DNA from: a virus
Strand: one strand, 5' to 3'
Length of the DNA stretch: 19,234 nt
Virus genome (UHGV): UHGV-1599518
Every line of letters begins with the position of its first letter. Positions within the stretch are counted from its first letter, which is position 1. Below are positions 2,658 through 19,234 of the stretch, one piece after another. The notes beneath the pieces are model-generated. The model was not told the origin of the DNA and searched no databases. It saw only the letters and a program-made list of their open reading frames with translations. A program made the position numbers and the translations under genes.

Positions 2658-3089
2658 TCAACGGGGAGTAATAAAGCGTTCAGAGCCTAATCGCTCTAAT
2701 TCAACGATGGCCATCTTTGACGCCTGAACGATCATGTCTCGGCGATGCGAAAAGGCGGCGACAGCATGTTTGTATATGTCTGCGATGTGCCGTGCTTCAT
2801 CCAACTTCTGCCGTTTAGACAGATACTGTGGGTTTGTTTTAACCTTAGCGTCCAGTACAGACTCGTTGAACTTAATGCCGTTCATACTCAAGTTCTTACG
2901 CTCTGTGTCGTATAGCTTTGCTTCAACAGCTTCAAGGTTAAGTTTTGCCTCTGCGACATCTCGATCTGCCTGCGCTAGTTTTGACCCATACTCCATTAAA
3001 AGCCGTGGCTGTTTACGCCATACTTCCTCAAGGTTGTCGCGGTCGAACTCCAGATCGGCCATGATTTTAGAAAAAATATCAGTGTTCAC
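2658..3089 (-). CDS. hypothetical coiled-coil protein, possible UvsY-like recombination mediator
   Basis: 143-aa ORF at the head of the minus-strand operon (GTG 3089, SD AGGAA upstream). Size, charge pattern and context (with UvsX-like and gp32-like genes) are reminiscent of T4 UvsY; the similarity is weak and recalled from memory. Confidence 0.5.
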   Translation of the reverse strand: MNTDIFSKIMADLEFDRDNLEEVWRKQPRLLMEYGSKLAQADRDVAEAKLNLEAVEAKLYDTERKNLSMNGIKFNESVLDAKVKTNPQYLSKRQKLDEARHIADIYKHAVAAFSHRRDMIVQASKMAIVELERLGSERFITPR

Positions 3090-3572: not shown

Positions 3573-3594
3573 AAGGCGGCATTAGCCGCCTTTT
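3573..3594 (+). terminator. attenuator-like hairpin between the two genes of the module
   Basis: 8-bp GC-rich stem AAGGCGGC / GCCGCCTT with loop ATTA, followed by TT-GCAG; the U-tract is short, so at most partial termination. Confidence 0.3.
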
Positions 3595-3628
3595 GCAGAA
3601 ACTGTCCAACTATCTTCAAAGGAAAACT

Positions 3629-4192
3629 ATGGCGCTTTATAACTTCACTCTGACGCTCTCAGGCGTATCGTATGAGACGGAAGGACTGGAAGACGCGCTG
3701 TACCAAAACGGCTGTGACGATGCGCTAATTTGCGCATATGGAAACTCCGTCTATGTAGAATTTGACCGCGAAGCACAATCACTTGATGCAGCTATCGCAT
3801 CTGCGGTCGACAATATTGAATCAGCCGGTATCGGTGCAATTGTTGAATCCGTCGACTCGGCTCTTGTGGGCTTAAGCGATATCGCGGAACTGACAGACCT
3901 GTCTCGCCAGGCAGTGGCGTTGCTCAAAGACGGTAAGCGCGGAAGCGGCGACTTCCCTTGCCCTGTACAACGCATAAAAGGCCAGTCTCCTCTCTGGGAT
4001 TGGGCTGATGTGGCTGAATGGCTCATGAATAACGGACGACTTAAAGAGGGCGATCAAATTGTCCAAAATGCCCGAACTTTGAGTAAATGGAATCTGGCGC
4101 TTCGAAACAGCGTCTCGAAAGATTTCAACGAAATAGAGCAAATTGCGGAGAAACTGATTAAACGCCGCAAAGATATTGCGAAATGCGCATAA
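3629..4192 (+). CDS. DNA-binding protein with central helix-turn-helix (candidate antitoxin/regulator)
   Basis: ATG 3629 with SD AAGGA 5 nt upstream (the track start at 3593 is TTG and overlaps the hairpin). N-terminal ~90-aa domain, HTH-like segment IAELTDLSRQAVALLKDGKRG, then a basic C-terminal extension. Confidence 0.65.
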   Translation: MALYNFTLTLSGVSYETEGLEDALYQNGCDDALICAYGNSVYVEFDREAQSLDAAIASAVDNIESAGIGAIVESVDSALVGLSDIAELTDLSRQAVALLKDGKRGSGDFPCPVQRIKGQSPLWDWADVAEWLMNNGRLKEGDQIVQNARTLSKWNLALRNSVSKDFNEIEQIAEKLIKRRKDIAKCA

Positions 4193-5040: not shown

Positions 5041-8000
5041 TTACTTATTTATTGTCTCCGCGATATCAGCCAGAATGGCCTCCAGTCGCTCTCCTTCTTC
5101 CGGTCGGAAGTACAGGATATTCGGGTTAAATCCGTAGAAGACGGTTGCATCAAGCTCTGGGAAGTACTCCTTACAACCAATCAGATCTGATGGTTTACTC
5201 TTATTGTTAAATAGTGCGGTTGAACGACTACCACACGTCAAAATGTAGGTTGGTCGTACAAGATTAATTTCTTCCCGCATAAAGTCTGTGAACTGGCCTA
5301 TCTCGTCTTTGGTATAGTCTTTCTCTTTGTCCTTAACCTTCTTACAAACACCCGTGACATAAAGATCGCCCATGCGCAGATCTCCAACTGTCAGTAGTTT
5401 TGCCTTAAAGTCGTCGTATCCGTTCTCCATGAAGTAGCCGGTACGAGCGTCATTGCCGTTCGCATTGTCCAGAATGATCATGATTTTGGGTTTAATACCA
5501 ATAGTCGGGCGTATCAACTCCTCACCCAAGCCCATTTCAGCCGCCATACGTGTCATGAGTACGTTGATTTCGGCAGAACGCTTAGGATTCATTTCGAACG
5601 GACGTGATGCTTTAACAGCGTCAATGATGAGATTGCCCATCAGCTCAGCCTGGTCGCGCAGTCGTTCAGGATCAGTTGCTGGCAGACTGCCTGGCTCAAT
5701 TGACGCAAAAGCCCCTACTTTATGAAGCGACTCGCGTACACGACTGTTACATGCACGCTTCTCGACCGCTTCATCGAATTGTGCCACTGACTCGAATTTG
5801 CCACCAACTTTCTCACGCGCACGCATAATTGCCTGACAACCATTTTCAGAACAGCCTTTCACAGCAGAGAATGGCGCATACAGTGCCTGACTGCCGTCTT
5901 CGAGTGTGCGGATCTCAATTCGGTTAGATGACACATTAACGTCTGGTGGCAATACGCGAATGCCATAGGTCAGCGCATCCTTCACCAGCCCCTGATGCTT
6001 ATCCTCGCCCAGAATGGTGAGCGCAGCTGCGAAGAACTCAGCAGGGTAGTGCGTCTTTAGCCACATAGACTGATAACTGATTAAAGAATAAGCAACGGAG
6101 TGTGATTTATTGAACTGATAGGCTCCGTTTTTCTCAAATGCAGTCCATATCTCTTTTGCCTTCGTCTCAGACAGACCTGGATGTGACGTTGTAACGCGCA
6201 CAACTGGCATTGGCAGCTTCACTCCATGCTCCAACGCCTCTTCAACTGTCCTCAGAGTACCGTCCTCGCATTTAAAATGTTCTGCGCGATGAATCCGTTG
6301 TATTGCGCCATTTTCAAGCTCTACGTCGATCCACCCAGCTTGAGCCTGAATGACAAATTTCTCACCCATGCTCCTCATCTTTTCCATGTTCTTCTTACCG
6401 ATTGCTGAACGCACACCATCCGCCTCGGCCATTGTGAAACCAGCAAGAAGCCTTGTTGCGTTCATCGTTTGTTCCTGATAGAGAATCACTCCATTTGTTT
6501 CAGAGGTCAGTTCATCCAAGACAGGATGTAGTGATGTAGGCGTCATAAATCCTTTCGCAACGGAAACATAGTCATCCAACATGCCGGATTGAATCGGTCC
6601 CGGTCGGAAGAGGGCGGTAGTTGCGACAACGGTTTTGAAACTCATTGGCTCGATGCCACCGCCCAGATCTTTAAGCAGCTTACGCATGGGGCCGGACTCC
6701 AGCTGGAATACGCCCTGCGTGTACCCTGCAGCGAACCCATCCAGAACCTTGCGATCGTCCAGTGGGATAGCGTCGAGATTGATGTCTTCACCGGTACTCT
6801 CTTTGATGTAGCGTTTCGCGCTATCCAGAAGATCGAGTGTTGCCAGACCGAGAACGTCCAACTTAATCAGCCCCATCGCCTCGCAGTAACGTTTATCGAA
6901 CGCAATACATCGAGCATTGCCACGCAGCTCGACGGGCGTGCGCTCTACTAATGGAACGCCAGCGACGATCATCCCCGCAGCGTGACGACCAAAACCACGC
7001 ATCAGGCTTTGCAGCTTACACGCCGCTTTGAACGCTTCCGGGTTTTTCGTGGCGTATTTGTCCAGGCTGGCCAGTTGCTCGCGCAGCTCTTCCAGAGACA
7101 GGCTGTCGTCCTCCATATTCTTGAACTCTTTGGATACCGCCATATCCGCAGCATCGACACCGTAAATACGTGCAGTGTCACGCAGCGCAGATGCCGCGCC
7201 CAGATAGGTGAAGTTCGGAATGCCTGCAACGTAATCTTCGCCGTAGCGTTCATTCAGATACTCGATCACCTCATGGCGACGTGCCTGGCTGAAGTCCAAG
7301 TCCGCATCCGGCAAGTCGAGACGCTCAGGGTTGATGAAACGCTCAAACAGAAGACCGTGACGGATTGGGTCGACGTTGGTTATGCCTATGCACCACGCCA
7401 CCAGAGAACCGGCAGAGGAACCACGACCAGGCCCGACAGGAATGCCAGTTTCACGGCTGTGATTCATCAGATCGCGTACCATCAGGAAGTAACCACAGAA
7501 TCCCAGGCGAGTCAGCGTGTCCATTTCGTACTTTAGCCGCTCAACATAAACCCTGTTCTCAGAAGCAGGTGGTGTGTATCCAAACTCTTTTGTGGTAAGA
7601 CGTTTACGCAGCCCTGCAACAGCCAGTTTCATCAGCGTTGCAGGTTCGTCGTCTGCCATCTTGGGCAGTGCTGGTGGCAATTCATGCCAGCGCCATGTGC
7701 AGGCATCGATAATGGTATCCTGCGTTGTTGAGGCCATTGCAGCTGTTACCGGCACATCCATGCGAACGGAGAAGGCTTTAAGCGCCTCAAGGAGATGGCG
7801 GCGACCATTGACGGCGTTATCTCGCTGGTGGGGGATACGCAGACGATGCGGCTGGTCGATTTTGATGTTGTTCGTAACCATGTGCGCAATGTCTTTAATG
7901 TCTGCATCGTCGATCGATTCGTAATAAGCGGGATAGAACGCCACTGGCTCTATTTTCAATGCGCTGGCGACTTTCATCGCCCGGACGTTAATCTGGTCGT

Positions 8001-8559
8001 AGAATGGGGTAGGGTGCGGATAAACCACACTATAGAAGTTGTCTTTTCCACCCGCTGTAATCAGTGTGCTTATGATTTTTGCAAAATCGTTGCGTTGGAA
8101 CACGCTACCGATGTCGGAAGTAAGCAGGATGATGTTGCCTTTGGCATATGTAGAAACCAACTGTTCGAGCGAGAGACGCGGTACAAAGTAGAACTGTTCT
8201 CGTGTGTTGGCCGCCGTCATTAGTTCGCAGATGTCGCGATATCCTTGCTCATTTTTAATTAGAGCGGTAAACGAGTAGTTACGTCCCCGCTCTAATGATT
8301 CCATACATCTCATAGATTCTTTAGCAAGTTTAGCCCGGTGCTCGTATGTGGGATCATCAACAATGTTTAGTTTCACACCACAAATAACCGCCATGTCGTC
8401 ACCAGCGGCACGTTGTAGTGGAATAACGCTCGCAATATTCATGCTATCTGCTGAAATTACAGCGGTGTAGCCAGCTTCTCTGGCAATCTTCACCGCGTTT
8501 TCTGCTTTTAGAGCCGACTCCCCAAGTGAGAAGTCAGTTCGAACCATCAGTGCCTTCAT
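5041..8559 (-). CDS. dnaE: DNA polymerase III alpha subunit-like (DnaE-type C-family polymerase) with a C-terminal UDG-like domain
   Basis: 1172 aa. Contains [59 protein letters not shown] and [29 protein letters not shown], the DnaE palm/fingers signatures. ATG 8559 with SD AAAGG. Confidence 0.9.
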   Translation of the reverse strand: [1172 protein letters not shown]

Positions 8560-8737
8560 GTGTTTTTACCTTTCTGGTTTTTTTGATTTTGTCATTGGGG
8601 AAGCCTACGAACTTCCCATGCATCGAAATCGCAACTTCTTTTGCTGATTGGTGACAATCGGGCTTGTCTGGACACACCAGACAAGCCTTACCAGTTTCAG
8701 AAGCAGCGATAAGAGAGCCGAAACATCCTTTACGCAC
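8534..8737 (-). CDS. questionable small Cys-rich ORF (67 aa) in the dnaE leader
   Basis: GTG start 2 nt after the upstream stop, no SD, overlaps the dnaE start by 26 nt. Encodes C-x13-CxxC-x5-C, but the CxxC region coincides with a perfect 11-bp palindrome, so this may be structured leader RNA rather than coding. Confidence 0.2.
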   Translation of the reverse strand: MRKGCFGSLIAASETGKACLVCPDKPDCHQSAKEVAISMHGKFVGFPNDKIKKTRKVKTHEGTDGSN

Positions 8738-8739
8738 GA

Positions 8740-9975
8740 TTAACCAAATATTTTTTGAACAACTTCACGAGCCGCTTGTGCAGAAGCTGAAGGGAGTTTG
8801 TTAATGAAAGAACGCTCAATACCTGTCACAAAGTCGCCTCGCATCATTCCAATCTTGGCCGACAACAAAAGTTCACGAGGGCCAATTGGCTGACTGATAA
8901 GGTGTTCTTCGTATCCATCGCGAACGATACCGGCAAACTTAACCATCTTTTCTGCGTATTCATCCACGATACCGGCATTTATCAACATGTTGATCTCTGC
9001 CTCTTTGCTCATGTATTTCACATTCGAAACGATGCCAAAACGCGAAAAGTTCGCGGCGTTCTGGATGTTTGTACCCTGGTACAAGCCGGTTTCATCACCA
9101 GATCCGTTCGTGTTGCCAGTGCCAATGAAAGCAAACCGTTCATGCGGAGTAATGCGACGCCATTCTGGAGTCGCCTCTTTGATGACCAACGCTTCACCTT
9201 CCAGCACTGGCTGATACACGCCAAGAATCTGTGGAAACGCAAAGTCGTATTCATCCGCGAGGTAAACCCAGCCATGCTTCATTGCGAGCGCAAGCAAGCC
9301 AGGCTCGAAATACGTAGAGCCATCACGCGCCAGAATTTGTCCCGTAACATGAGCCTCTTCCATTGATGCTGTATGTTGGGCACGGATTAACGGACGATTG
9401 AGCAAAGCACATAGTTGTGTAGGCAATGAAGATTTGCCTGTTCCTGCATGACCCCACAAATAGCCAGGTATGCCAAGTTCAAGCATCATGAAAATGTCTT
9501 TGATCAGTTCGAAGTCGCCATATACGTATCCCTTCTTCACTTCTGGAACGAACTCTGGAAACGGCGTATTGACGTTGACGCTAACCATGAGCGGCGTCCC
9601 ACGTTTTGTTCCGAGTTCTTTCACCGTTACATTTAGCAGTTCGTGAGCTGCGACCAGATCTGTCTTGTACTCAACTGTGCCTGTGTAGCCTGGGCTACTG
9701 GTCACGCCAGATGATTTGGCCATTTCGCTTTTTTGCTCGGCACGTTTAGCTTGAATTGCATCAAGTGCCTTTTTCGATAGCGTTGGCTCATCTGGAAACT
9801 GTGTTGTGTACATTTTCAGTACGGTGTCAGGATCGGCATCTTTTACTGACTCAGGAATGCCCTCGCAATTACCATTGGCTACATGGGACTTAAAATAGTG
9901 AAATGATTTTCCGCACCACTTGCAAACAAGGTAATCAGAAGGATTTTTTTCATTTTGCAGTGCAGTAGTAGTCAT
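8740..9975 (-). CDS. cobS: AAA+ ATPase, CobS/MoxR-like (AAA_5 type)
   Basis: Walker A GHAGTGKS, Walker B WVYLADEYD. N-terminal CKWCGKSFHYFKSHVANGNC looks like a zinc-finger. ATG 9975 with SD AGGA. Confidence 0.8.
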   Translation of the reverse strand: MTTTALQNEKNPSDYLVCKWCGKSFHYFKSHVANGNCEGIPESVKDADPDTVLKMYTTQFPDEPTLSKKALDAIQAKRAEQKSEMAKSSGVTSSPGYTGTVEYKTDLVAAHELLNVTVKELGTKRGTPLMVSVNVNTPFPEFVPEVKKGYVYGDFELIKDIFMMLELGIPGYLWGHAGTGKSSLPTQLCALLNRPLIRAQHTASMEEAHVTGQILARDGSTYFEPGLLALAMKHGWVYLADEYDFAFPQILGVYQPVLEGEALVIKEATPEWRRITPHERFAFIGTGNTNGSGDETGLYQGTNIQNAANFSRFGIVSNVKYMSKEAEINMLINAGIVDEYAEKMVKFAGIVRDGYEEHLISQPIGPRELLLSAKIGMMRGDFVTGIERSFINKLPSASAQAAREVVQKIFG

Positions 9976-10070
9976 GCGTTTTTCCTTTGTTTTCTAATGA
10001 GCGTTCAACTTCTTATATAAATATATCATTATCTATCGTAAGTGGTTACTTATCGTTAAGGCTGTTTTGT

Positions 10071-12179
10071 TCACTTTAAAATGATACGAGATAGTTCAGT
10101 AACTACAGATGAACCAAGACTATCAACGCTCGTTACCAGGGCATGATTTGAGTAAAATCTCTCCGGTGCGTCAGTCATGATGCCAATTGCCATCAAATCA
10201 ATATCAGTCTGCGTTTCAATTTGCTTCGCAACTGAACGCAAATGAGCGTCAAAACCTCTCCCAACAGCCCACGGCGCGCCATCACTCAGAACAAGCATGA
10301 TCTTCCTGTCCTCCATGCGACCGGAAAATAACGATGCAAGGCTGGCTATGCTTTCACCATCCACGTTATTAAGAAGTGGGAATGTGTAGCCTACGCACCC
10401 CATACGTGAGCGAACTTCGCGAGAATTTACCTTTTCATTCCAATTTTTGATGATAGGTAGCATTAAAGATTCAAAGCGAGAGAACTCATACTTGACAGCC
10501 TTAAGTTCTCCTGCCGCCATATGACTACCAAATGTAGTGAAGCCGGTGATAATGTTGGGAACATTTATTCGATCAAGTGCATCGGCGATGGTATATGCAC
10601 TTGCAAGAGCTAGTTTTATCGTTTCGCCACTCATTGAACCCGATAAATCAATCACTTGTTGAACACAGGCGTTAACGGCTTTAGATTCTTCTTTTTTACG
10701 AAACACGCGATCATCATTCATTGTTAATCTGTAGATACTTGAACCATGAATGCGCCCCCGACGCTGGCCAGGTATAAACTGAACTCTGTTTCTGCTTGCT
10801 ATTGCACGTTCCAGGTCTTTTGCCAGCGTCGACGAAACACCTGACGAAAGGTGCTTTTCAATATATTTGTCGAAGAGTTGGTTGCCTTCAGGAACGATGC
10901 GATAACGGCTGATTGGATATCCACCTAAATCAATATCGGAGAATGTTTTAATAAGCCGTTTGATATGGGCTTCTGCCTGATCAATCGAGCCGATGAAGTC
11001 GTATGAGCGATTGTATGGCCTGTATTCGCTTTTCGAGCTTTCTGTTAACTCGCTTTTAATCGTTTCGGATAGCGCATCTTCTGTCATGCCTCCGACTTCA
11101 TCTTCCATGCTATCCAACTCCTCTAAAGCCTCTTCCAGACTCATTTTTGACGGAGTTGGAATGTCTGAAGAGCCGTCTTCTGTCGATTTTCTTTTTTCGT
11201 GGTCAGTGGTAAATGATTCTGACGCCGCGTTATCAGAAGCACCAGAATCTGATACCTCTTTATCATTTTCTGTATCATCGAATATTGTTTCTGATGATTC
11301 AGAATTATCTGAATCATCACTGTCGTTATTATCATGTTTGTGCTTACTGTGTGATTCTGATTTGATAGATTTGTGATTATCTAACGCTGAGGGTGTCTCA
11401 TGATCTTCGTTGTCTTCATTGTTTTCTCCAGAGGCATCCGTCTGGTCAGCGTCTGAAGGATCGGAAGTTTTTCCCGGAGCTGACTCCTTACCTTTGCTTT
11501 CACTTTCAGTGTCTTTGAGGATCTTAGCTATGGTCGCAGCCACCTTTACACAATCCTCGGTGCAAGACATGTTACGCACGGCCACATCGATACCATGTTC
11601 TTTTAATAATGAAATTGGTTTCTCAATGACAGGCCAATATTCATCCATGAAATCTACGAACGGTGCTTGGCCATCCCAGGCTCTTACAACCGGACAGAGA
11701 AAGAAGTTTAGAAAAAGCGCGCGCTGATCTTTGCCACAATAAGCAATAGCCTCTGAAGCCTTTGGTTTAAAGACTTTTTCGATTATAAGGCGCTGAGTTG
11801 CCATCAGATTACGTCTTGTTCCGTTAAAGACCTGACCCATTTTTCGCTCGATGAACACGTCTTCTAAGGCATTCCATAGCGACCAGGAAGGAACGCGTCC
11901 TTTTTCTCTCATTTTGTTGGACACACGAATATCGGTAAACAAAATGTGAGCAACCTCATGATCGAGAAATCCGCGCACAGCATTCATCAATGCCGGTGTT
12001 GCGTTATCCGGGATTGATGGGATGTTTACGAGAATTGGCTCTCCATCATCGTTATAGCGTACATAAGCGTCGTCCCCTCGTTCTGCAACAGGGATGTTTT
12101 TACCTGAAAGGAGAGCGACTACTCGTTTTACACTGTCACGGAAGTCCTGAACCTCTTTGATGGAACGTTTTTTAGACAT
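10071..12179 (-). CDS. cobT: CobT-like protein with C-terminal von Willebrand factor A domain
   Basis: 702 aa. C-terminal MIDAS motif VIDLSGSMSG and a downstream DG motif; a long central Asp/Ser/Glu-rich low-complexity region (roughly residues 220-380). ATG 12179 with SD AGGA. Confidence 0.8.
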   Translation of the reverse strand: MSKKRSIKEVQDFRDSVKRVVALLSGKNIPVAERGDDAYVRYNDDGEPILVNIPSIPDNATPALMNAVRGFLDHEVAHILFTDIRVSNKMREKGRVPSWSLWNALEDVFIERKMGQVFNGTRRNLMATQRLIIEKVFKPKASEAIAYCGKDQRALFLNFFLCPVVRAWDGQAPFVDFMDEYWPVIEKPISLLKEHGIDVAVRNMSCTEDCVKVAATIAKILKDTESESKGKESAPGKTSDPSDADQTDASGENNEDNEDHETPSALDNHKSIKSESHSKHKHDNNDSDDSDNSESSETIFDDTENDKEVSDSGASDNAASESFTTDHEKRKSTEDGSSDIPTPSKMSLEEALEELDSMEDEVGGMTEDALSETIKSELTESSKSEYRPYNRSYDFIGSIDQAEAHIKRLIKTFSDIDLGGYPISRYRIVPEGNQLFDKYIEKHLSSGVSSTLAKDLERAIASRNRVQFIPGQRRGRIHGSSIYRLTMNDDRVFRKKEESKAVNACVQQVIDLSGSMSGETIKLALASAYTIADALDRINVPNIITGFTTFGSHMAAGELKAVKYEFSRFESLMLPIIKNWNEKVNSREVRSRMGCVGYTFPLLNNVDGESIASLASLFSGRMEDRKIMLVLSDGAPWAVGRGFDAHLRSVAKQIETQTDIDLMAIGIMTDAPERFYSNHALVTSVDSLGSSVVTELSRIILK

Positions 12180-12277
12180 GGCTAATCCTTTGTTATGAAA
12201 ACAAATTATTTACTAGTGTGTTTAATGTAGCACTGCGCGAACAGGGAACTAAGCCATTCGCGCAGGGAGAAGAGGGG

Positions 12278-12490
12278 TTAACAGATTCTGACGGCTAAAG
12301 ACCAGGAGCCGGTATTGAGAAGCGTGAAGCGTTTGTTGTTAAGTTCGAATATAAAGCCAGTTGTGTCATTCACACCAACCTGAATCTGCTCATTCGGTAG
12401 ATCGGTGAGGATGTCAGCTACACACTCATCAGCTAATTTCTGTACGTGTCCGATCTCAAGAGCGATTAGGCTGGAAATAGTGGTGTTCAT
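12278..12490 (-). CDS. hypothetical protein (70 aa)
   Basis: ATG start with weak SD, immediately upstream of the cobT-like gene. No motif recognised. Confidence 0.35.
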   Translation of the reverse strand: MNTTISSLIALEIGHVQKLADECVADILTDLPNEQIQVGVNDTTGFIFELNNKRFTLLNTGSWSLAVRIC

Positions 12491-12667
12491 TCAATCAATC
12501 CATTCTAACTTATACTATGGTAAGGAATACTACTAAAATTTGTATCAATACTGAATACATTCATATCATATGCAAGTTGATTTTCTTACCTGTTTTGGGC
12601 TAATTTTTCTCCGTGCAATGGCCTTTAACCGGTCTTTTAAGTGCCTATCGAAAAAAATGATAATAGC

Positions 12668-12710
12668 TTTACAACCCTAACCTTTGATGTAATATCGGTA
12701 AGCACTTACC
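12668..12710 (+). promoter_or_regulatory. candidate promoter with palindromic operator at +1
   Basis: TTTACA (12668..12673), 16-bp spacer, TAATAT (12690..12695), followed by the 14-bp palindrome GGTAAGCACTTACC (12697..12710), about 30 nt upstream of the HTH gene ATG. Confidence 0.4.
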
Positions 12711-12741
12711 AGAGAGAATTGAACGCGCAAAGGTTGTAACC

Positions 12742-13128
12742 ATGTCTGATAACAAGATTGAATTTATAGAAAGTCGCTACGCTGCTTTTATCGCAGGGTT
12801 GATTGAATCCTCACCTATGAGCCAGGCCCAGATAGCCAAAACAATTGGGTATAAAAACGCCAACAACCTTTCTTTAATTAAAAGCGGCAAAATTCCTTTG
12901 CCTATCGATAAGGTTCGTCCGCTGGCGCTGGCACTGGGCATTGAGCCAAGTCGTCTTATGATGATGGTGCTGGAAGAACGCCAACCCGAACTCGCAGCAT
13001 TTTTATACAAAGAAGGCACTGCTCCTCTTAACGAGGACGAAAAACAGGTTCTTGCTGCATATAACGAGCGATTCGGTAAAGAGAAAGGCGCATCACAAAA
13101 GGTTGTTGAGGCCATAAAGTCTCTATGA
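12742..13128 (+). CDS. XRE-family helix-turn-helix transcriptional regulator
   Basis: HTH segment MSQAQIAKTIGYKNANNLSLIKSGKIPLPIDKVRPLALALGIEP. ATG 12742 with SD AAAGG. The 3' end overlaps the convergent integrase gene by 6 nt. Confidence 0.75.
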   Translation: MSDNKIEFIESRYAAFIAGLIESSPMSQAQIAKTIGYKNANNLSLIKSGKIPLPIDKVRPLALALGIEPSRLMMMVLEERQPELAAFLYKEGTAPLNEDEKQVLAAYNERFGKEKGASQKVVEAIKSL

Positions 13129-14226
13129 AAAATTTACACGAATAAGCTCTGTTGATAGACGATCTCCCTTAAATTTGTGGTCAATTTCGTCTAAATCCGG
13201 TTGCTCTACGATTGATGCGATGTACGTCGAGAAACTTTCTAAGGCGTCTCGCATCTCGTCCATATAATCGTGCCGGTCGTAGACCCGATCTATCCCCTCA
13301 AGACTGTGGTTCATGATTTTACGTGATACCTCCTGGCTTATGCCTAATGCTGGGAAGTAACTACGCGCAGTACGGCGCAAATCTCGGGGTGTAAATGGCT
13401 CAAGCTCCATCAGTTCTGGTCGTTCCAGAATACGACGTAATGCCTGGGCTATTGCCACTTTAGACATAGGAAGGTCTTTCCCGATTTTTTTATTCGAAGG
13501 CACGAGCCACTGGCTGTCTTTACCATATTCGAACAACTCTTCAATACAAGTGCGCATTAATGAGCTTAAAGGCAGAGAATGCTCACGGGCAGATTTGTTC
13601 CTCTTGCCTTGATTCCAAACCCCACGCTTAAGATTGAACTCACTTTTTTTAGCCCGCAGTACTTCGTCAGGTCGTCTTGCGGATACAAGACATAGCCTGG
13701 CCGCCCATTTTGTACCAGCACACACATTGAAGTAGTCCCATATATTCCAGAACACCCATACCTCTGCGTCGGTCAGCTTCCGCTCGCGAGGTGTGGGCTT
13801 TGCGCCACCGGCAACTTTGTTAAGTGACATATCGTTTAACGGTGACACGTCTATCATCCCCTGGAAGGCGCACCAGCTAAGGAACTGCTTCATCAGAGAG
13901 AAAACGCGGCGGCCCATAACAATTTTGCCATCCAGTATTAGTGGGTTGACCAGTTGGTTCACCATGAACCTATTAATGTCACTTACTTTTACATCGGCAA
14001 TGTGCGGCAAAACATGTATCAAAATACAATGAACAGCGATCTCTGGCCGACGTCTGGTTATCAGCAGAGATAAGCGAGTGAATAACATGAATGCGTCCGA
14101 GAATCTCATGTCATTGCTGACCTGGGAGATCATAACGGCCTGCATTTGAGATGCTCTTTCGAGATACTCTATCGCCTCTTTTGAGGTGTTCTCCGCAGCG
14201 CGTGCGCTGTCAAAGCTATTTTTCAT
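13123..14226 (-). CDS. int: tyrosine recombinase / phage-type integrase
   Basis: Catalytic-domain blocks LVSARRPDEV (Arg), HSLPL, FTPRDLRRTARSY and NHSLEGIDRVYDRHDY (His...Tyr) match the tyrosine recombinase R-H-R-Y active-site layout. Confidence 0.85.
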   Translation of the reverse strand: MKNSFDSARAAENTSKEAIEYLERASQMQAVMISQVSNDMRFSDAFMLFTRLSLLITRRRPEIAVHCILIHVLPHIADVKVSDINRFMVNQLVNPLILDGKIVMGRRVFSLMKQFLSWCAFQGMIDVSPLNDMSLNKVAGGAKPTPRERKLTDAEVWVFWNIWDYFNVCAGTKWAARLCLVSARRPDEVLRAKKSEFNLKRGVWNQGKRNKSAREHSLPLSSLMRTCIEELFEYGKDSQWLVPSNKKIGKDLPMSKVAIAQALRRILERPELMELEPFTPRDLRRTARSYFPALGISQEVSRKIMNHSLEGIDRVYDRHDYMDEMRDALESFSTYIASIVEQPDLDEIDHKFKGDRLSTELIRVNFS

Positions 14227-14855: not shown

Positions 14856-15764
14856 ATGATTGGTAAGTTGTCTGATTCTTTGATTGAAAATAAATACAAC
14901 GAATTTAGAGAAGAAATATCTTTACTTTTTGATTATTTAAATCAGATAAATGATACAACAAAGAAAAATATAAAACGTCTTCTTAAAGAAGTGGAGTATG
15001 CACAGAATCCAGATACTATTATTAATATTAATGAAACTATTAAGATTAAGTGTGGCACAACGTTAGCTCGCCATTTATGTTCAAACCCATATACAGGTTC
15101 AACATTAGAGATAGGTAACAGCGCCATTGATTTAGAAGAAAAGATAAGATTGTGTAATACTTTGAAAAATAAACAATATCAGTGGGTTATTACTGAAGCC
15201 TATGAGTTACTGGAAGACTATATTGAGGCAATATATGTCTATACTGTATGTGTTCGAAATGATTTATGGTCCTCAAGTGATTTTGGTAAGGTTGAAGATG
15301 ATGAAATTGGGAAAAGGGAAGTTTATTACAGATTATTAAAAGCAAAAAGTAACCCATCGAAAAAAATAACTAAAATTTTCAGAAATAAAATACCTGGCTT
15401 CAAAGAGATAGAAACAAACAACAAGATTGGCAAAAACTATCGCTTTAACATCAAGCTAATTGAACTACTAAGACATACAATAGTACACAATAGTGGACGA
15501 TTCAATGATACAGAAAAATTTATAAATAAGGTTTTAGATGAATCTGAAATAAACGGTAAGAAAAGAGTTATTGGAGAAAGAGCTGTTAGAAGTTACATTA
15601 CTAAAGTGCAAGAAGATGATATTGTGATGCTCTTAGAAAGACCATCTGAAATTTTAGGTTCTTTTGGTGGGTATTTTAACAGAGCAAAATTTTTACTAAG
15701 TGATATTTTAGAATACTCACTAATCATTAAAGAAGAACTAAAATCATATCTAGGCAATCATTAA
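14856..15764 (+). CDS. AT-rich hypothetical protein (302 aa) with HEPN-like Rx4H motif; candidate Abi-like RNase
   Basis: ATG 14856 with SD AGAGG 5 nt upstream and its own terminator. By eye ~25-30% G+C against ~50% for neighbours. Lys/Asn/Ile-rich; motif ELLRHTIVHNSG fits the HEPN R-[NHQ]-x3-H signature. Opposite strand to both neighbours. Confidence 0.7.
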   Translation: MIGKLSDSLIENKYNEFREEISLLFDYLNQINDTTKKNIKRLLKEVEYAQNPDTIININETIKIKCGTTLARHLCSNPYTGSTLEIGNSAIDLEEKIRLCNTLKNKQYQWVITEAYELLEDYIEAIYVYTVCVRNDLWSSSDFGKVEDDEIGKREVYYRLLKAKSNPSKKITKIFRNKIPGFKEIETNNKIGKNYRFNIKLIELLRHTIVHNSGRFNDTEKFINKVLDESEINGKKRVIGERAVRSYITKVQEDDIVMLLERPSEILGSFGGYFNRAKFLLSDILEYSLIIKEELKSYLGNH

Positions 15765-16523: not shown

Positions 16524-16561
16524 GGGGTTTGAGGGCCAATGGAACGAAAACGTACGCTAAG
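16524..16561. repeat. 38-bp terminal inverted repeat of a Tn3-family transposon (Tn1000/gamma-delta-like)
   Basis: GGGGTTTGAGGGCCAATGGAACGAAAACGTACGCTAAG has the GGGG outer end and TGGAACGAAAAC core typical of Tn3-family IRs (from memory). The tnpA stop codon lies inside it. Confidence 0.85.
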
Positions 16562-19234
16562 AAGTTAATTCATTGTTTAAATTGAAATTTAGTTCTCTCA
16601 GTTCCCCCTTCAAAATATCCTCCGGTAGCGTAAACGTATAATGCCCCAGCATATTGATATGCCCGTGCATCAGTGGGGACAACCGGGCGATATCTTCAAC
16701 CCCGATTTCTTCTCCATTACTGCGTATCCAGCTCAGGGCTTCCTGCATATAAAGTGTGTTCCACAGTACCACTGCGTTAGTGACCAGGCCCAGTGCCCCC
16801 AGCTGATCTTCCTGACCTTCACGATAGCGCTTTCTGATCTCACCGCGCTGCCCGTAGCAGATCGCCCTCGCCACAGCATGGCGGCCTTCCCCCCGGTTTA
16901 GCTGCGTCAGGATCCGCCGACGATAATCCTCATCATCAATATAATTAAGAAGGTACAGCGTCTTGTTGACGCGCCCCACTTCCATGATCGCCTGTGCCAG
17001 CCCTGATGGGCGCGAGCTTTTCAGCAAAGAGCGAATGAGTTCTGAAGCATGAATGGTGCCCAGTTTCAGCGAACCGGCGGTTCGCATCATCTCATCCCAC
17101 TGATCCTCGGCTTTCGACAGATCGGCACAACCACGTGCCAGTTCGTCCAGTGCACCGTAATTTGCCGATTTATCCACTCGCCAGAATACCGCTTCACCGG
17201 CATCGGCAAGCCGGGGGGAAAACTGGTATCCCAGCAGCCAGAAGAGGCCAAAAATAATGTCGCTGGTACCGGCTGTGTCTGTCATGATCTCAACCGGATT
17301 CAGCCCTGTCTGCTGCTCCAGAAGGCCTTCCAGCACAAAAATGGAATCTCGTAATGTGCCGGGGACAACGATGCCGTGGAATCCAGAGTACTGATCAGAG
17401 ACGAAGTTGTACCAGGTGATGCCACGTCCGGAACCAAAATATTTTCTGTTAGGTCCTGAATTGACGGTTTTCACCGGCGTGACAAAGCGCATGCCATCAG
17501 CTGAAGCCACTTCGCCACCACCCCAGCGGCCAGCAAGCTCCAGTGTGGACTGAAAATCAACCAGGCGGGCATTGGCGCTGACCAGCGTTTCTGCCCGGAG
17601 GTAATTCTGTTTTACCCAGCTAAGCCGGTGGCGCGTCAGCGCCGGTATATTGTGCTTTATCAGCGGTTCCAGCCCGATATTGCAGGCCTCTGCCATCAGG
17701 ACCGCGCACAGGCTGATGTGCAGATCCTGTGCCCGGGCCCCGGATTCACTGACATGCGTAAACTCACGTGTAAATCCCGTTCTGGCATCTATTTCAAGCA
17801 ACAGTTCCGTCAAATCTACTGGCGGGAGTAGCAGCCTTACCCGACTGTTGAGACGATGCAACGATGGTGGCTCCTCCAGTTTCTCCAGGCTGCTGATAGT
17901 CAGGGAAGGATGTTTACCGTCATGGCAAATATGAACCTCCGCATTTCCTTCAAAGCGGGATGCGACGGTTTTCCAGGTTTCATCTAGCTGGACCGCCAAC
18001 TGTTGCACGCCTTTATGTCCATCAGTGGGATGTCCCAGCGCCCGGCAAACGGGGACCCGCTGAGCCTGCCATTCTTCCCCCTGCAACAGCTTCTCGCGGG
18101 GATTTCCCCAGCGATCGCTGTTTTCGAGCCAGATGTCCCTTCGACGTAGTGCATCCTGAAGGCGCTCCAGCAGACAAAGCGAGTAACCGGCACGCTGTAT
18201 CCGGCCCTCCGCATCGTATACCAGGCGTTTCCAGGGGCCGGTAATAATATGTTCAGGCGCATTGTCCAGGATGCGCTTTTTCGAGCCGTTCAGTTCGGTC
18301 AGATAATGAATGGCGGACAACGTATGTTCTCCGGCTGGCGCTGCCTGGAAATGCAGGTCGCGCAATACCGCCGGAAGAAAGCGCTTTACCCGCCCGTACT
18401 GCTCCACCATTTCGTCATGGAAATTGTTGTTCTGAGGCCGGGCCAGCTCATTTACCTTGCTGACGGATTCTGCCAGCCTGCTTTTCGGTATGCTGTTGAA
18501 TATGGTCTCCCTCAGTTCAGCATCGTCAGCCTGTTCATCCAGCAACAATGAACATGCCCGCGCCAATATTAGCGCAGCACGATCAAGATCTTTAAGCGTC
18601 CTGAGCCGTTTTTTCTGCCCCGTTTTCTTCGCCGCACGAGTGATATCCAGTATCAGCATATCGAGCACATCAACGGCCTCATCCAGCGCCGCAGTCTCCT
18701 GCGCTTTAACGAATGCTGTGAGTACGGCCAGTTTTCTCTGCTGTGGCATTCGCGCGATATATTTTACCGACGCCATGCCTGCGTAACGGGCCAAATTACG
18801 CAGTTGTATAGCAGGCAGACCGGTAAAATTCAGTCGGGAAAATTCCAGGTTTCGCAGCCGGATATATCGCTCCAGCGCTTCGGTAAATGCCGGGCCGCTG
18901 ACGGTGACCGGTCCCTTTTTCAGTTGCTCCAGCGGTGAAGTACGCTGCCCCTCAGGAATGTCCAGAAGCTCCGTCACGCGGGCGGTCTGCCAGCTGTCCG
19001 GCAACGCGGCCAGTTTCTTCCACAGCCGCTGATTTGCCCGTTCGCGTATTTCACTGACGAGACGTACAAGTGTGGTTGCTCCGGGCAGCAGGACCTTATT
19101 CTGAAGCAGCCACGCGGTGGCAAAATCAAACATAAGGCCGGGTCGCTCATTACTGAGCCATGCGCGGGTGTACAGCAGGCGCTTCAGGCGGAAAGACCAG
19201 GGGAAATCGCCAAATTCATGGTAACCGTAATATT
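16557..19234 (-). CDS. tnpA: Tn3-family transposase TnpA (C-terminal ~890 aa; N-terminus beyond the right window edge)
   Basis: ORF-track 858-aa ORF 16557..19133, and the frame stays open upstream to the window edge (…YHEFGDFPWSFRLKRLLYTRAWLSNERPGL before the track's Met). Blocks such as GGGEVASADGMRFVTPV, GITWYNFVSDQYSGFHGIVVPGTLRDSIFVLEGLLEQ and LYLLNYIDDEDYRRRILTQLNRGE are characteristic of Tn3-family TnpA. Confidence 0.95.
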   Translation of the reverse strand, partial: YYGYHEFGDFPWSFRLKRLLYTRAWLSNERPGLMFDFATAWLLQNKVLLPGATTLVRLVSEIRERANQRLWKKLAALPDSWQTARVTELLDIPEGQRTSPLEQLKKGPVTVSGPAFTEALERYIRLRNLEFSRLNFTGLPAIQLRNLARYAGMASVKYIARMPQQRKLAVLTAFVKAQETAALDEAVDVLDMLILDITRAAKKTGQKKRLRTLKDLDRAALILARACSLLLDEQADDAELRETIFNSIPKSRLAESVSKVNELARPQNNNFHDEMVEQYGRVKRFLPAVLRDLHFQAAPAGEHTLSAIHYLTELNGSKKRILDNAPEHIITGPWKRLVYDAEGRIQRAGYSLCLLERLQDALRRRDIWLENSDRWGNPREKLLQGEEWQAQRVPVCRALGHPTDGHKGVQQLAVQLDETWKTVASRFEGNAEVHICHDGKHPSLTISSLEKLEEPPSLHRLNSRVRLLLPPVDLTELLLEIDARTGFTREFTHVSESGARAQDLHISLCAVLMAEACNIGLEPLIKHNIPALTRHRLSWVKQNYLRAETLVSANARLVDFQSTLELAGRWGGGEVASADGMRFVTPVKTVNSGPNRKYFGSGRGITWYNFVSDQYSGFHGIVVPGTLRDSIFVLEGLLEQQTGLNPVEIMTDTAGTSDIIFGLFWLLGYQFSPRLADAGEAVFWRVDKSANYGALDELARGCADLSKAEDQWDEMMRTAGSLKLGTIHASELIRSLLKSSRPSGLAQAIMEVGRVNKTLYLLNYIDDEDYRRRILTQLNRGEGRHAVARAICYGQRGEIRKRYREGQEDQLGALGLVTNAVVLWNTLYMQEALSWIRSNGEEIGVEDIARLSPLMHGHINMLGHYTFTLPEDILKGELRELNFNLNNELTS

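What the first reader, a model, noticed from the sequence alone, without database searches (positions are those of the whole stretch)
8740..12179. CobS-like AAA+ ATPase and CobT-like vWA protein co-transcribed upstream of the polymerase gene
These two minus-strand genes with AGGA ribosome-binding sites lie directly upstream of the dnaE-like gene. The ATPase carries an N-terminal zinc-finger-like CKWC…H…H…C. The vWA protein has an intact MIDAS motif (DLSGSMSG) and a long Asp/Ser/Glu-rich disordered segment. CobS/CobT-like pairs recur in large phages, but to my knowledge their role there is not established. Chelatase-like AAA+/vWA machines typically remodel a protein substrate, and the placement next to the replisome genes points to a replication-linked or host-takeover role rather than cobalamin synthesis.
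Basis: partly seen in the sequence, partly recalled or inferred. Interest (0 to 1): 0.5.

Follow-up and report, generated by a model that had tools for sequence, protein, structure and literature searches.

The report
Phage CobS/CobT-like AAA+ and peptidase-vWA pair
These two genes of an E. coli phage-plasmid resemble the cobalt-chelatase subunits CobS and CobT, but they most likely form an ATP-driven machine that remodels or cuts a protein during phage replication; the pair is already widely annotated in phages and its target is unknown.

Summary
Window 12179..10071 (-) encodes a 702-aa CobT-like vWA protein and 9975..8740 (-) a 411-aa CobS-like AAA+ ATPase. They lie in an SSU5/Cyrano-type E. 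coli phage-plasmid (99.9% identical to many plasmids).

Neither protein is a cobaltochelatase subunit. Both score far below the NCBIfam equivalog cut-offs. The element carries no cob genes, and its ribonucleotide reductase is the B12-independent NrdAB.

This domain is homologous to CobT_N, described as M48-peptidase-like in a 2026 CobSTN structure preprint. All 118 bona fide CobTs examined lack the HExxH.

It is specific to the DnaE-siphovirus lineage and is acidic here.

The pair sits inside replication or recombination gene clusters in three polymerase contexts: DnaE siphoviruses, T4-like cyanophages (gp46–pair–gp45) and ICP2-like podoviruses.

Best reading: an early lytic MoxR-type motor with a vWA-peptidase adaptor acting on an unknown protein client. 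The replication link rests on gene neighbourhood only.

The pair, including its metallopeptidase-vWA fusion, is already described computationally in the literature. It is a new member of a known kind, of moderate interest.

The parts
10071..12179 (-). CobT-like vWA protein, 702 aa. Layout: M48-like N-domain (aa 1-224), acidic disordered linker (aa 225-345), then a helical/'shaft' segment plus vWA domain (aa 346-702).
   Evidence: Pfam CobT covers aa 9-294 (E 1.9e-27) and CobT_C covers aa 492-701 (E 1.7e-82). PHROG 1576 E 1e-300. The AlphaFold2 model has pLDDT 84.9 and pTM 0.78. PDB CobT 9uka_G aligns over aa 440-697.
11946..11960 (-). HEVAH motif (H74-E75-V-A-H78), the predicted zinc-binding and catalytic motif on helix 62-81 of the N-domain.
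   Evidence: H74, E75 and H78 are invariant in 80 homologues of 27-61% identity. HExxH is present in 126 of 127 full-length representatives and in 0 of 118 bona fide CobTs.
11847..11864 (-). E106-D107…E111 (N-A-L-E-D-V-F-I-E), the downstream acidic motif that provides the candidate third zinc ligand.
   Evidence: E106, D107 and E111 are invariant. They align to DAVEQARVE of Brucella CobT.
11145..11507 (-). Asp/Glu/Ser-rich disordered linker (aa 225-345).
   Evidence: D+E+S make up 50% and pI is 4.25. pLDDT is below 50 for aa 238-244 and 252-337. CobT has an equivalent unobserved linker of about 90 residues.
10635..10649 (-). MIDAS motif D511-L-S513-G-S515. With T548/T549 and D633 it forms the metal-ion-dependent adhesion site.
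   Evidence: D511, S513, S515 and D633 are invariant. The vWA domain matches the NorD and Midasin MIDAS domains by Foldseek (E 6e-9 to 2e-8).
8740..9975 (-). CobS-like MoxR-class AAA+ ATPase, 411 aa. Layout: Zn finger (about aa 15-70), linker (aa 71-140), AAA+ large and small subdomains (aa 141-411).
   Evidence: AAA_5 E 2.1e-15. PHROG 249 E 2e-106. PDB CobS 9ujv E 1.8e-25 over aa 141-411. Invariant motifs: Walker A G175-x2-G-x-G-K181, Walker B D241-E242, and R312, R352, R367.
9766..9933 (-). Ros/MucR-like zinc-finger domain of the ATPase. Ligand candidates are C18, C21, H31 and C37; most relatives have H36 instead of C37.
   Evidence: Family consensus is KIxCxICGxxxHxIxxHLxxxHP…Y…FPDAPxLS. 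PF05443 ROS_MUCR matches 16 of 66 relatives; the best, P0328, scores 28.8 bits against the gathering cut-off of 25.4, with residues 3-60 on profile positions 64-120 of 123. The window protein itself gives no hit.
8534..8737 (-). 67-aa Cys-rich ORF between the ATPase gene and dnaE, overlapping the dnaE start.
   Evidence: phrog_6337 E 3e-45. Translation. In related phages this position holds a sigma-70 region-2-like gene plus a small gene.
5041..8559 (-). DnaE-type DNA polymerase III alpha subunit, the downstream gene of the same apparent operon.
   Evidence: Pfam PHP, DNA_pol3_alpha, finger and HHH_6 domains.
12278..12490 (-). 70-aa ORF, the first gene of the apparent operon, followed by a 9-bp perfect inverted repeat at 12233-12265.
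   Evidence: phrog_2627 E 1e-39. Inverted repeat.
12742..13128 (+). Divergently transcribed HTH regulator, the counterpart of Cyrano CYRAN_45 'putative repressor'.
   Evidence: HTH_19 E 8e-4. Cyrano annotation. CYRAN_45 is listed as expressed in the LF82 lysogen, whereas CYRAN_46-49 (small ORF, vWA, ATPase, DnaE) are not on that list (PMC9928086).

Best explanation
The two genes encode a MoxR/CobS-class AAA+ motor and its vWA adaptor. They are built like the CobS-CobT core of the aerobic cobaltochelatase but are not used for cobalt insertion.

**Mechanism inferred by analogy with the CobSTN structures**
- The ATPase forms a hexameric ring.
- The adaptor's N-domain docks on the small AAA+ subdomain.
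- A conserved 'shaft' segment just upstream of the vWA fold (about aa 464-503) enters the ring pore on ATP binding.
- The MIDAS face of the vWA domain holds a protein client.

**How it differs from CobT**
- The adaptor's M48-like N-domain keeps HExxH plus downstream Glu/Asp residues.
- The captured or remodelled client is therefore probably also cleaved.

**Likely timing and role**
- The genes are the first large genes of the operon that runs into dnaE, and they are divergent from the putative lysogeny repressor.
- I therefore infer an early lytic function serving phage DNA replication or recombination, or takeover of the host machinery for it.
- The ATPase's Ros/MucR-type zinc finger is a lineage-specific targeting module for DNA or a protein partner.

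**What is shown and what is inferred**
- Shown: domain architecture, motif conservation, homology, synteny.
- Inferred: assembly mode, proteolysis, timing, and a link to replication.
- The client is unknown.
For: **Homology to both chelatase motor subunits**
- Homology extends over the full AAA+ module and, for CobT, over both domains.
- All AAA+ catalytic motifs and all MIDAS residues are invariant in 66 and 80 homologues respectively.
- The shaft-equivalent segment is conserved: G475 is invariant and G471, L482, R491 and F493 are nearly so. CobT 373-413 aligns here.

**Structural precedent**
- The CobSTN preprint shows CobT_N (M48C-like) bound to the CobS small subdomain, the shaft in the ring, and CobN on the MIDAS side.

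**Zincin signature**
- HExxH/ED/E is invariant among the close representatives: 126 of 127.
- It is also kept in distant lineages: RHEph10, ICP2, CRP-810, Gordonia Minos, Tsukamurella TIN3, Rhodococcus Reynauld and the cyanophage P-RSM4 'peptidase'.
- It is absent from 118 of 118 true CobTs.
- The N-domain model (pLDDT 93) has the helix, three-strand sheet and HExxH-helix topology.

**Not a chelatase**
- E. coli and Salmonella lack CobN and the aerobic late-insertion pathway (established knowledge: Lawrence & Roth; Rodionov 2003).

**Replication-module synteny in three polymerase contexts**
-.
- Structural genes lie about 20-45 kb away in the plasmid.
- The operon is divergent from the repressor and is not listed as expressed in the lysogen.

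**General precedent**
- The MoxR-vWA principle of peptide capture followed by ATP-driven remodelling is set out in PMC7159879.
Against: - There is no experimental datum for any viral CobST-like pair.
- Pseudomonas phage nickie (DSEISK) and Stenotrophomonas phage BUCTxx99 (DREVST) have lost both His ligands while keeping the pair in the same position. Proteolysis is therefore dispensable at least there.
- The zinc-finger region is acidic in this protein (pI 5.5; family median 6.3). This does not fit a classical basic Ros/MucR DNA-binding domain.
- Clustering with replication genes could simply reflect shared early timing. In actinophages and Roseobacter phage CRP-810 no replisome genes are adjacent.
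- Co-transcription with dnaE and early expression were not measured.
Confidence: 0.55

Rival explanations
1. Virion-assembly chaperone/protease. The MoxR-vWA pair with its fused metallopeptidase helps fold, assemble and proteolytically process structural proteins. This was proposed for T4-like jumbo phages, by analogy with the Acidianus two-tailed virus MoxR-vWA pair needed for tail development.
For: - The proposal is published (Iyer et al. 2021, PMC7824862; the ATV precedent is cited).
- The architecture is the same as the cyanophage 'peptidase'+CobS pair.
Against: - In the DnaE-siphovirus, T4-like and ICP2-like lineages the pair lies inside replication or recombination clusters, not structural modules.
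- In the reference plasmid the tail-to-terminase module is at 36-62 kb, whereas the pair is at 14-17 kb.
- None of the 60 IMG/VR loci has an SSU5-type terminase, portal or capsid gene within 10 kb. This is weak evidence, because those queries are lineage-specific.
Confidence: 0.15
2. Host-takeover or counter-defence protease with no direct link to replication. An early-expressed AAA+-driven peptidase captures and destroys a host protein, such as a defence factor, nucleoid protein or regulator, or the element's own repressor.
For: - It occupies the first position of the operon divergent from the putative repressor.
- The zincin site and the peptide-capturing MIDAS are conserved.
- The N-terminal extensions of the ATPase vary between lineages, as expected for host-specific targeting.
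- The pair lies in early regions without replisome genes in actinophages and CRP-810.
Against: - There is no PADLOC or anti-defence family match, apart from one weak DrmE hit (E 6.6e-4) that runs from the end of the low-complexity linker into the shaft and vWA region.
- The peptidase ligands have been lost in two lineages.
- The strong, repeated embedding between replisome genes is not explained.
Confidence: 0.15
3. Metal-cofactor insertion chaperone for a phage enzyme. Like CobST, NorQD, CoxDE or CbbQO, the pair would open a client so that a metal centre can be loaded. Candidate clients are the PHP domain of the adjacent DnaE and the di-iron NrdB encoded elsewhere on the element.
For: - The closest relatives with known function are metal-insertion machines: CobS/CobT and NorQ/NorD.
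- The pair is adjacent to a PHP-domain DnaE in many phages.
- The element also encodes NrdAB, ApbC and a glutaredoxin.
Against: - The pair also occurs next to PolA (ICP2) and in T4-like phages (family-B gp43 polymerase, from knowledge of T4). These polymerase families have no PHP domain.
- It does not explain the near-universal retention of a peptidase active site that true CobT has lost.
Confidence: 0.12
4. Auxiliary metabolic gene. Viral CobS/CobT would combine with a host CobN to boost cobalt insertion and vitamin B12 supply.
For: - This is proposed in the literature (Liu et al. 2021, PMC8651126; Seed et al. 2011, PMC3037004).
- Homology to CobS and CobT is genuine.
Against: - The scores are 6- to 10-fold below the equivalog cut-offs.
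- The ATPase lacks CobS_N (PF12556), which Brucella CobS has.
- The adaptor has an intact HExxH, unlike 118 of 118 CobTs.
- The hosts (Escherichia, Salmonella, Klebsiella, Yersinia) have no CobN and no aerobic pathway (established knowledge).
- The element has no cob genes and uses B12-independent NrdAB.
Confidence: 0.03

Closest known systems
Aerobic cobaltochelatase motor CobS-CobT (EC 6.6.1.2; Brucella CobSTN structures 9ujv/9uka)
   Same: - A MoxR-class AAA+ ATPase is paired with an adaptor of identical layout: M48-like N-domain, acidic disordered linker, shaft, then a vWA domain with MIDAS.
- Both are detectably homologous over all ordered parts.
   Different: - The window adaptor keeps HExxH/ED/E, whereas CobT has S-M-x-x-R/EQ/E.
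- The ATPase lacks CobS_N and instead has about 100 extra N-terminal residues, including a Ros/MucR-type zinc finger.
- Gene order is T then S, versus S then T in Brucella.
- There is no CobN partner or cob pathway.
- Scores are far below the equivalog cut-offs.
Phage MoxR-vWA pair with an N-terminal metallopeptidase on the vWA protein (Iyer, Anantharaman, Krishnan, Burroughs & Aravind 2021, Viruses 13:63); the 'cobST cluster' of tailed viruses (Liu et al. 2021, PLoS Biol)
   Same: - The two-gene architecture is the same.
- The T4-like cyanophage P-RSM4 'peptidase' has HEVGH, NVLEDARIE and the MIDAS motif DWSGS.
- Its N-domain aligns to the window protein (E 5e-4), and the ATPases match at hhalign probability 99.8%.
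   Different: - This instance is in a temperate DnaE-encoding phage-plasmid of enterobacteria.
- Its ATPase has a zinc-finger N-terminus that cyanophage, ICP2 and actinophage versions lack.
- The published functional proposals (virion assembly; hijack of host CobN) fit this context poorly.
NorQ-NorD, CbbQ-CbbO, RavA-ViaA and Rea1/Midasin (MoxR-class AAA+ with a vWA/MIDAS adaptor)
   Same: - An AAA_5 ATPase with a CbbQ_C-type small subdomain in relatives.
- The vWA domain is structurally closest to the NorD and Midasin MIDAS domains.
- The logic is the same: capture a client peptide through MIDAS, then remodel it with ATP.
   Different: Those adaptors carry no zincin domain, their clients are respiratory or ribosomal complexes, and sequence similarity is only at domain level.
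M48/M56 gluzincin metallopeptidases (Ste24/HtpX, BlaR1; 'minigluzincins')
   Same: - An HExxH helix preceded by a small beta-sheet and followed by a helix carrying conserved Glu.
- CobT_N is described as M48C-like.
   Different: - No significant sequence match to any peptidase family in Pfam or the PDB.
- The domain is soluble and fused to vWA.
- Activity is untested.

Membership tests
Cobaltochelatase subunit CobS (TIGR01650 equivalog) | Whole-protein score above the curated equivalog cut-off. | tested here: not met
   84.8 bits against a cut-off of 558.55, and the match covers only aa 141-411.
Cobaltochelatase subunit CobS (TIGR01650 equivalog) | N-terminal CobS_N domain (PF12556). | tested here: not met
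   No PF12556 hit, even at E up to 10 for aa 1-142. Brucella CobS has it.
Cobaltochelatase subunit CobT (TIGR01651 equivalog) | Whole-protein score above the curated equivalog cut-off. | tested here: not met
   74.6 bits against a cut-off of 759.05, and only the C-terminal aa 442-697 match.
Cobaltochelatase subunit CobT (TIGR01651 equivalog) | Domain layout of CobT_N (M48-like), disordered acidic linker, shaft, then vWA with MIDAS. | tested here: met
   Pfam CobT plus CobT_C. AlphaFold2 model. hhalign of the N-domains gives E 7.5e-5. Layout of CobT.
Cobaltochelatase CobNST holoenzyme | A CobN partner and an aerobic cobalamin pathway in the element or host. | tested here: not met
   No cob gene appears among the annotated features of plasmid CP099286 positions 4748-110387. 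Absence of CobN from enterobacterial hosts rests on established knowledge and was not searched here.
MoxR-class AAA+ ATPase with vWA co-chaperone | AAA_5-type ATPase with intact Walker A, Walker B, sensor and arginine residues. | tested here: met
   G175, G178, G180, K181, D241, E242, N288, R312, R352 and R367 are invariant in 66 homologues. AAA_5 E 2.1e-15.
MoxR-class AAA+ ATPase with vWA co-chaperone | Adjacent gene for a vWA protein with a complete MIDAS (DxSxS…T…D). | tested here: met
   D511, S513, S515 and D633 are invariant, and T548/T549 nearly so. An ATPase partner was found in 45 of 60 IMG/VR loci; several of the 15 loci lacking one end at or soon after the match, and the others are short or N-domain-only matches.
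Phage MoxR + metallopeptidase-vWA pair (Iyer et al. 2021) | Metallopeptidase domain fused N-terminally to the vWA co-chaperone, encoded next to the MoxR ATPase in a phage genome. | tested here: met
   HEVAH at aa 74-78 plus E106/D107/E111. The same motifs occur in the P-RSM4 'peptidase'. The element is a phage-plasmid.
Zincin (gluzincin, M48/M56-like) metallopeptidase | HExxH plus a downstream Glu ligand, conserved across the family. | tested here: met
   Present in 126 of 127 representatives and invariant in alignment A2. Exceptions are nickie and BUCTxx99.
Zincin (gluzincin, M48/M56-like) metallopeptidase | Zincin fold. | tested here: inconclusive
Zincin (gluzincin, M48/M56-like) metallopeptidase | Zinc binding and peptide-bond hydrolysis. 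| not testable with these tools
   This needs metal analysis and a protease assay.
Ros/MucR zinc-finger domain (PF05443) | Match to the family profile above the gathering score. | tested here: inconclusive
   The window protein gives no hit. Its homologue P0328 scores 28.8 bits against the cut-off of 25.4, and 16 of 66 relatives match at E up to 0.01. The window residues C18, C21 and H31 sit in the conserved ligand columns.
Ros/MucR zinc-finger domain (PF05443) | Basic DNA-binding surface. | tested here: not met
   Region aa 12-75 has pI 5.5. The family median pI is 6.3 over the corresponding region (window aa 15-75), and only 15 of 66 members are basic.

The most novel reading that the evidence does not exclude
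Viral 'CobST' is an ATP-driven, MIDAS-targeted protease or unfoldase of the phage replication programme. A CobS-like ring powers a catalytically active M48-type zincin-vWA adaptor. This adaptor strips and cleaves a specific DNA-associated host or phage protein, for example a replisome, clamp, nucleoid or repressor component, so that the phage polymerase can take over. On this reading the cellular cobaltochelatase adaptor CobT is the pseudo-peptidase sibling of this much more widespread viral machine.
Probability: 0.25. Interest if true: 0.7.

Novelty: new member of a known kind. Interest (0 to 1): 0.4.

Why it matters
CobS/CobT-like pairs are core genes of marine T4-like cyanophages. They also occur in pelagiphages, vibriophages, actinophages, haloarchaeal viruses and hundreds of enterobacterial phage-plasmids, including relatives of Salmonella Typhi pHCM2 and Yersinia pestis pMT1. 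They are routinely counted as 'vitamin B12 auxiliary metabolic genes' in virome studies.

If they are in fact a protease or remodelling machine of the replication programme, three things follow:
- That ecological bookkeeping is wrong.
- A new class of phage early function becomes testable in a tractable E. coli K-12 system (phage PhiR41_1 or Cyrano).
- The evolutionary origin of the chelatase adaptor CobT as a dead peptidase becomes clear.

As it stands, the instance itself is ordinary and already annotated. The value lies in a sharper, testable hypothesis.

Tried and rejected
**Searches that added nothing**
- phmmer of the N-domain alone against the PDB gave only spurious MHC and SOD hits.
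- Pfam at E up to 10 gave nothing beyond PF06213 for the N-domain. For the ATPase N-terminus it gave only a chance FtrD-like hit.
- PADLOC gave no defence-system membership. The single DrmE hit (E 6.6e-4) runs from the end of the low-complexity linker into the shaft and vWA region, and I discount it.
- Foldseek of the full-length model returned only vWA/MIDAS domains.
- Foldseek of the N-domain returned nothing significant.
- The afdb50 library was unavailable.

**Calls that failed or needed a workaround**
- The first homologue search for the vWA protein listed only close SSU5-type relatives. Diversity came from the representative search instead.

**Results I discarded**
- The Xanthomonas phage JGB6 'hit' falls in a record with fragmented genes and was ignored.

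**Hypotheses I rejected or demoted**
- I considered that the adjacency to DnaE reflects loading of the PHP-domain metal site. I demoted this because the pair also accompanies PolA- and PolB-type replisomes.
- I considered a role in plasmid maintenance. I rejected it because the same pair in the same module is also present in phage isolates from Pseudomonas, Stenotrophomonas and cyanobacteria, and T4-like cyanophages are strictly lytic.
- Literature searches found no experimental work on any viral CobST pair.

Full report
**What the window is.** The 4-kb region is 99.9% identical to about 110-kb non-mobilizable E. coli plasmids. It is 97-99% identical to Escherichia phages Cyrano, CMS-2020a and PhiR41_1, and about 75% identical to Salmonella phage SSU5. 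The window therefore comes from an SSU5-type phage-plasmid.

On the minus strand the gene order is as follows:
- glutaredoxin
- integrase
- a divergent HTH regulator on the plus strand
- a 70-aa ORF
- the vWA protein (12179..10071)
- the AAA+ ATPase (9975..8740)
- a 67-aa Cys-rich ORF (8737..8534)
- DnaE (8559..5041)
- a short plus-strand insert
- a 143-aa ORF (3089..2658)
- gp32-like SSB
- 5'-3' exonuclease

**Observation check.**
- the ORF boundaries
- the AGGA ribosome-binding sites
- C18KWC21…H26…H31…C37
- MIDAS DLSGSMSG at aa 511-518
- an acidic Ser-rich linker (aa 225-345; 50% D+E+S; pLDDT below 50 over 238-244 and 252-337)

Two corrections apply. The vWA gene comes first, and a conserved small ORF separates the ATPase from dnaE. 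No minus-strand terminator-like site lies between the vWA start and the start of dnaE within the scanned interval 8400-13200. Co-transcription is therefore plausible but unproven.

**What the proteins are.** The ATPase is a MoxR-class AAA+ protein. Its closest solved relative is Brucella CobS (E 1.8e-25 over aa 141-411), followed by Midasin, CbbQ and NorQ. The Walker A, Walker B, sensor and arginine residues are invariant in 66 homologues.

The vWA protein matches both Pfam CobT halves and PDB CobT in its C-terminal half. Its vWA domain is structurally closest to the NorD and Midasin MIDAS domains. The MIDAS residues are invariant.

Both proteins fail the NCBIfam equivalog thresholds by a wide margin: 84.8 bits against 558.6, and 74.6 against 759.

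**The N-domain of the vWA protein.** It carries HEVAH (aa 74-78) and N-A-L-E-D-V-F-I-E (aa 103-111).

- An exhaustive search with aa 1-230 found 1138 cluster representatives. Of the 127 full-length proteins among the top 150, 126 keep HExxH.
- In an 80-sequence alignment (27-61% identity) G70, D73, H74, E75, H78, E106, D107, E111, G120, N124 and R166 are invariant.
- I rebuilt most of the Brucella CobT sequence from the HMMER alignments and retrieved 118 full-length bona fide CobTs. None has HExxH anywhere.
- Profile-profile alignment of the two N-domain families (E 7.5e-5) places RGFLDHEVAH opposite RGLGDSMALR, and NALEDVFIE opposite DAVEQARVE.
- A 2026 preprint with the CobSTN structures reports that CobT_N is a three-stranded sheet plus helices "resembling the peptidase M48 subfamily C domain".
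- Foldseek found nothing significant, so the fold assignment rests mainly on homology to CobT_N and on the motif.

The simplest reading is that the viral proteins are the catalytically competent form of a domain that is a pseudo-peptidase in cellular CobT. This reconciles two published statements. One holds that cyanophage cobT is "mistakenly annotated as a peptidase" (PMC8651126). The other holds that T4-like jumbo phages have a MoxR-vWA pair whose vWA protein carries an N-terminal metallopeptidase (PMC7824862).

There is a caveat. Pseudomonas phage nickie and Stenotrophomonas phage BUCTxx99 have replaced both histidines while keeping the pair in place.

**The zinc finger of the ATPase.** Relatives show the consensus K-I-x-C-x-I-C-G-x3-H-x-I-x2-H-L-x3-H-P…Y…F-P-D-A-P-x-L-S.

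- Pfam ROS_MUCR matches 16 of 66 relatives. One of them, P0328, scores above the gathering threshold, matching the zinc-finger half of the profile.
- The window protein has diverged: its fourth ligand is C37 after a short insertion. It does not match the profile on its own.
- The domain is found in the DnaE-siphovirus lineage (SSU5-like, nickie, BUCTxx99, and degenerate in RHEph10). It is replaced by unrelated N-terminal extensions in cyanophage, ICP2, CRP-810 and actinophage ATPases.
- It is acidic here (pI 5.5), so DNA binding is not a safe inference.
- I treat it as a lineage-specific targeting module.

**Context.** The arrangement helicase-primase-ligase-CobT-CobS-(sigma-like or small gene)-DnaE-SSB-exonuclease-RecA is conserved at 30-45% protein identity. 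It is seen in Rhizobium, Pseudomonas and Stenotrophomonas phages and in many metagenomic contigs, some of them integrated prophages.

- In the unrelated T4-like cyanophage P-RSM4 the pair is inserted between gp46 and gp45 of the replication/recombination cluster.
- In the podovirus ICP2 it lies just upstream of primase, helicase and PolA.
- Of 60 IMG/VR loci found with the adaptor profile, 45 show the ATPase partner. Several of the 15 without one end at or soon after the match; the others are short or N-domain-only matches.
- Of the same 60 loci, 48 have a replication or recombination gene within 10 kb: 23 DnaE-type, 15 T4-like, 2 PolA-type and 8 with another replication gene only.
- In Gordonia, Tsukamurella and Rhodococcus phages and in Roseobacter phage CRP-810 the neighbours are uncharacterised early genes.
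- In the reference plasmid the structural module is 20-45 kb away. No cob gene is annotated, and the RNR is NrdAB.
- In Cyrano the operon (CYRAN_46-49) is divergent from the putative master repressor CYRAN_45. That repressor is listed as expressed in the lysogen, whereas CYRAN_46-49 are not on the list.

**Mechanism.** By analogy with CobSTN and with the general MoxR-vWA principle, I propose the following:
1. The ATPase forms a hexameric ring.
2. The adaptor's N-domain docks on the small AAA+ subdomain.
3. The conserved shaft segment enters the pore on ATP binding.
4. The MIDAS face captures a client.

Unlike CobT, the adaptor can probably cleave what it holds. Placement and regulation point to an early lytic role tied to DNA replication or recombination, or to takeover of host factors for it. 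The client is unknown. The steps from 'architecture' to 'proteolysis' and to 'replication' are inferences.

**Comparison and novelty.** The pair belongs to the known class of phage MoxR/CobS-like plus vWA/CobT-like gene pairs. It has been annotated in SSU5-type elements for years as 'porphyrin biosynthesis protein' or 'cobalamin biosynthesis protein CobT'. The metallopeptidase fusion has been noted for T4-like phages.

This analysis adds the following points. I did not find them stated in the papers searched:
- an explicit contrast between active-site-bearing viral adaptors and 118 of 118 degenerate cellular CobTs
- the Ros/MucR-type finger on the ATPase of the DnaE-siphovirus lineage
- a count of how consistently the pair sits in replication modules across three polymerase contexts

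No experiment on any viral pair was found.

**Verdict.** It is a new member of a known kind, with interest 0.4.

Noticed in passing
Escherichia phage Cyrano OV696614.1, CYRAN_47/48 (L079 4741-8180); corresponds to window 8740-12179: The deposited annotation calls the vWA protein 'dimethylbenzimidazole phosphoribosyltransferase' and the ATPase 'cobalamin synthetase'. These are the functions of the unrelated Salmonella CobT and CobS enzymes, so this is a gene-name collision error.
   Followed up: yes
L002 8974-11058 (Pseudomonas phage nickie); L014 6992-8977 (Stenotrophomonas phage BUCTxx99): In these two phages the adaptor has lost both zinc-binding histidines (DSEISK and DREVST instead of DHEVAH). 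It keeps the ED…E motif, the MIDAS and the position between ligase and DnaE. This looks like an independent pseudo-peptidase conversion like that of cellular CobT.
   Followed up: partly
window 8534-8737 (-): A 67-aa Cys-rich ORF (C5, C19, C22, C28; phrog_6337) overlaps the dnaE start by 26 nt. In related phages (L001, L007, L009) the same position holds a sigma-70 region-2-like gene plus a small gene.
   Followed up: partly
window 3593-4192 (+): A 199-aa ORF on the opposite strand, between dnaE and the SSB gene, matches the PADLOC candidate defence family PDC-M06B (E 1.6e-32). It is annotated only as 'DNA-binding protein' in the reference plasmid.
   Followed up: partly
window 14856-15764 (+): A 302-aa ORF lies in a low-GC island (GC about 0.32-0.34, versus about 0.45 around it). 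It matches phrog_35492 (E 3e-211) but has no Pfam or PADLOC match. The reference plasmid CP099286 carries a different gene at the equivalent place, so this is a variable cargo slot.
   Followed up: partly
window 16557-19133 (-): A Tn3-family transposase ORF of 858 aa retains only the last about 28 residues of the N-terminal DUF4158 domain. It lies in a high-GC block (0.51-0.56). It is not present at this position in the reference plasmid, so it is probably a truncated transposon insertion.
   Followed up: partly
window 12233-12265 and 12679-12735: A 9-bp perfect inverted repeat (CTGCGCGAA/TTCGCGCAG, 15-nt loop) lies between the 70-aa ORF and the vWA gene, with no T-run. An 8-bp inverted repeat lies in the divergent region between the operon and the HTH regulator. 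These are possible operator or RNA hairpin elements.
   Followed up: no
L007 11387-14809, L009 11390-14812 versus window 5041-8559: In the metagenomic relatives the DnaE polymerase carries a fused uracil-DNA glycosylase domain (PF03167). The window's DnaE shows no such domain.
   Followed up: no
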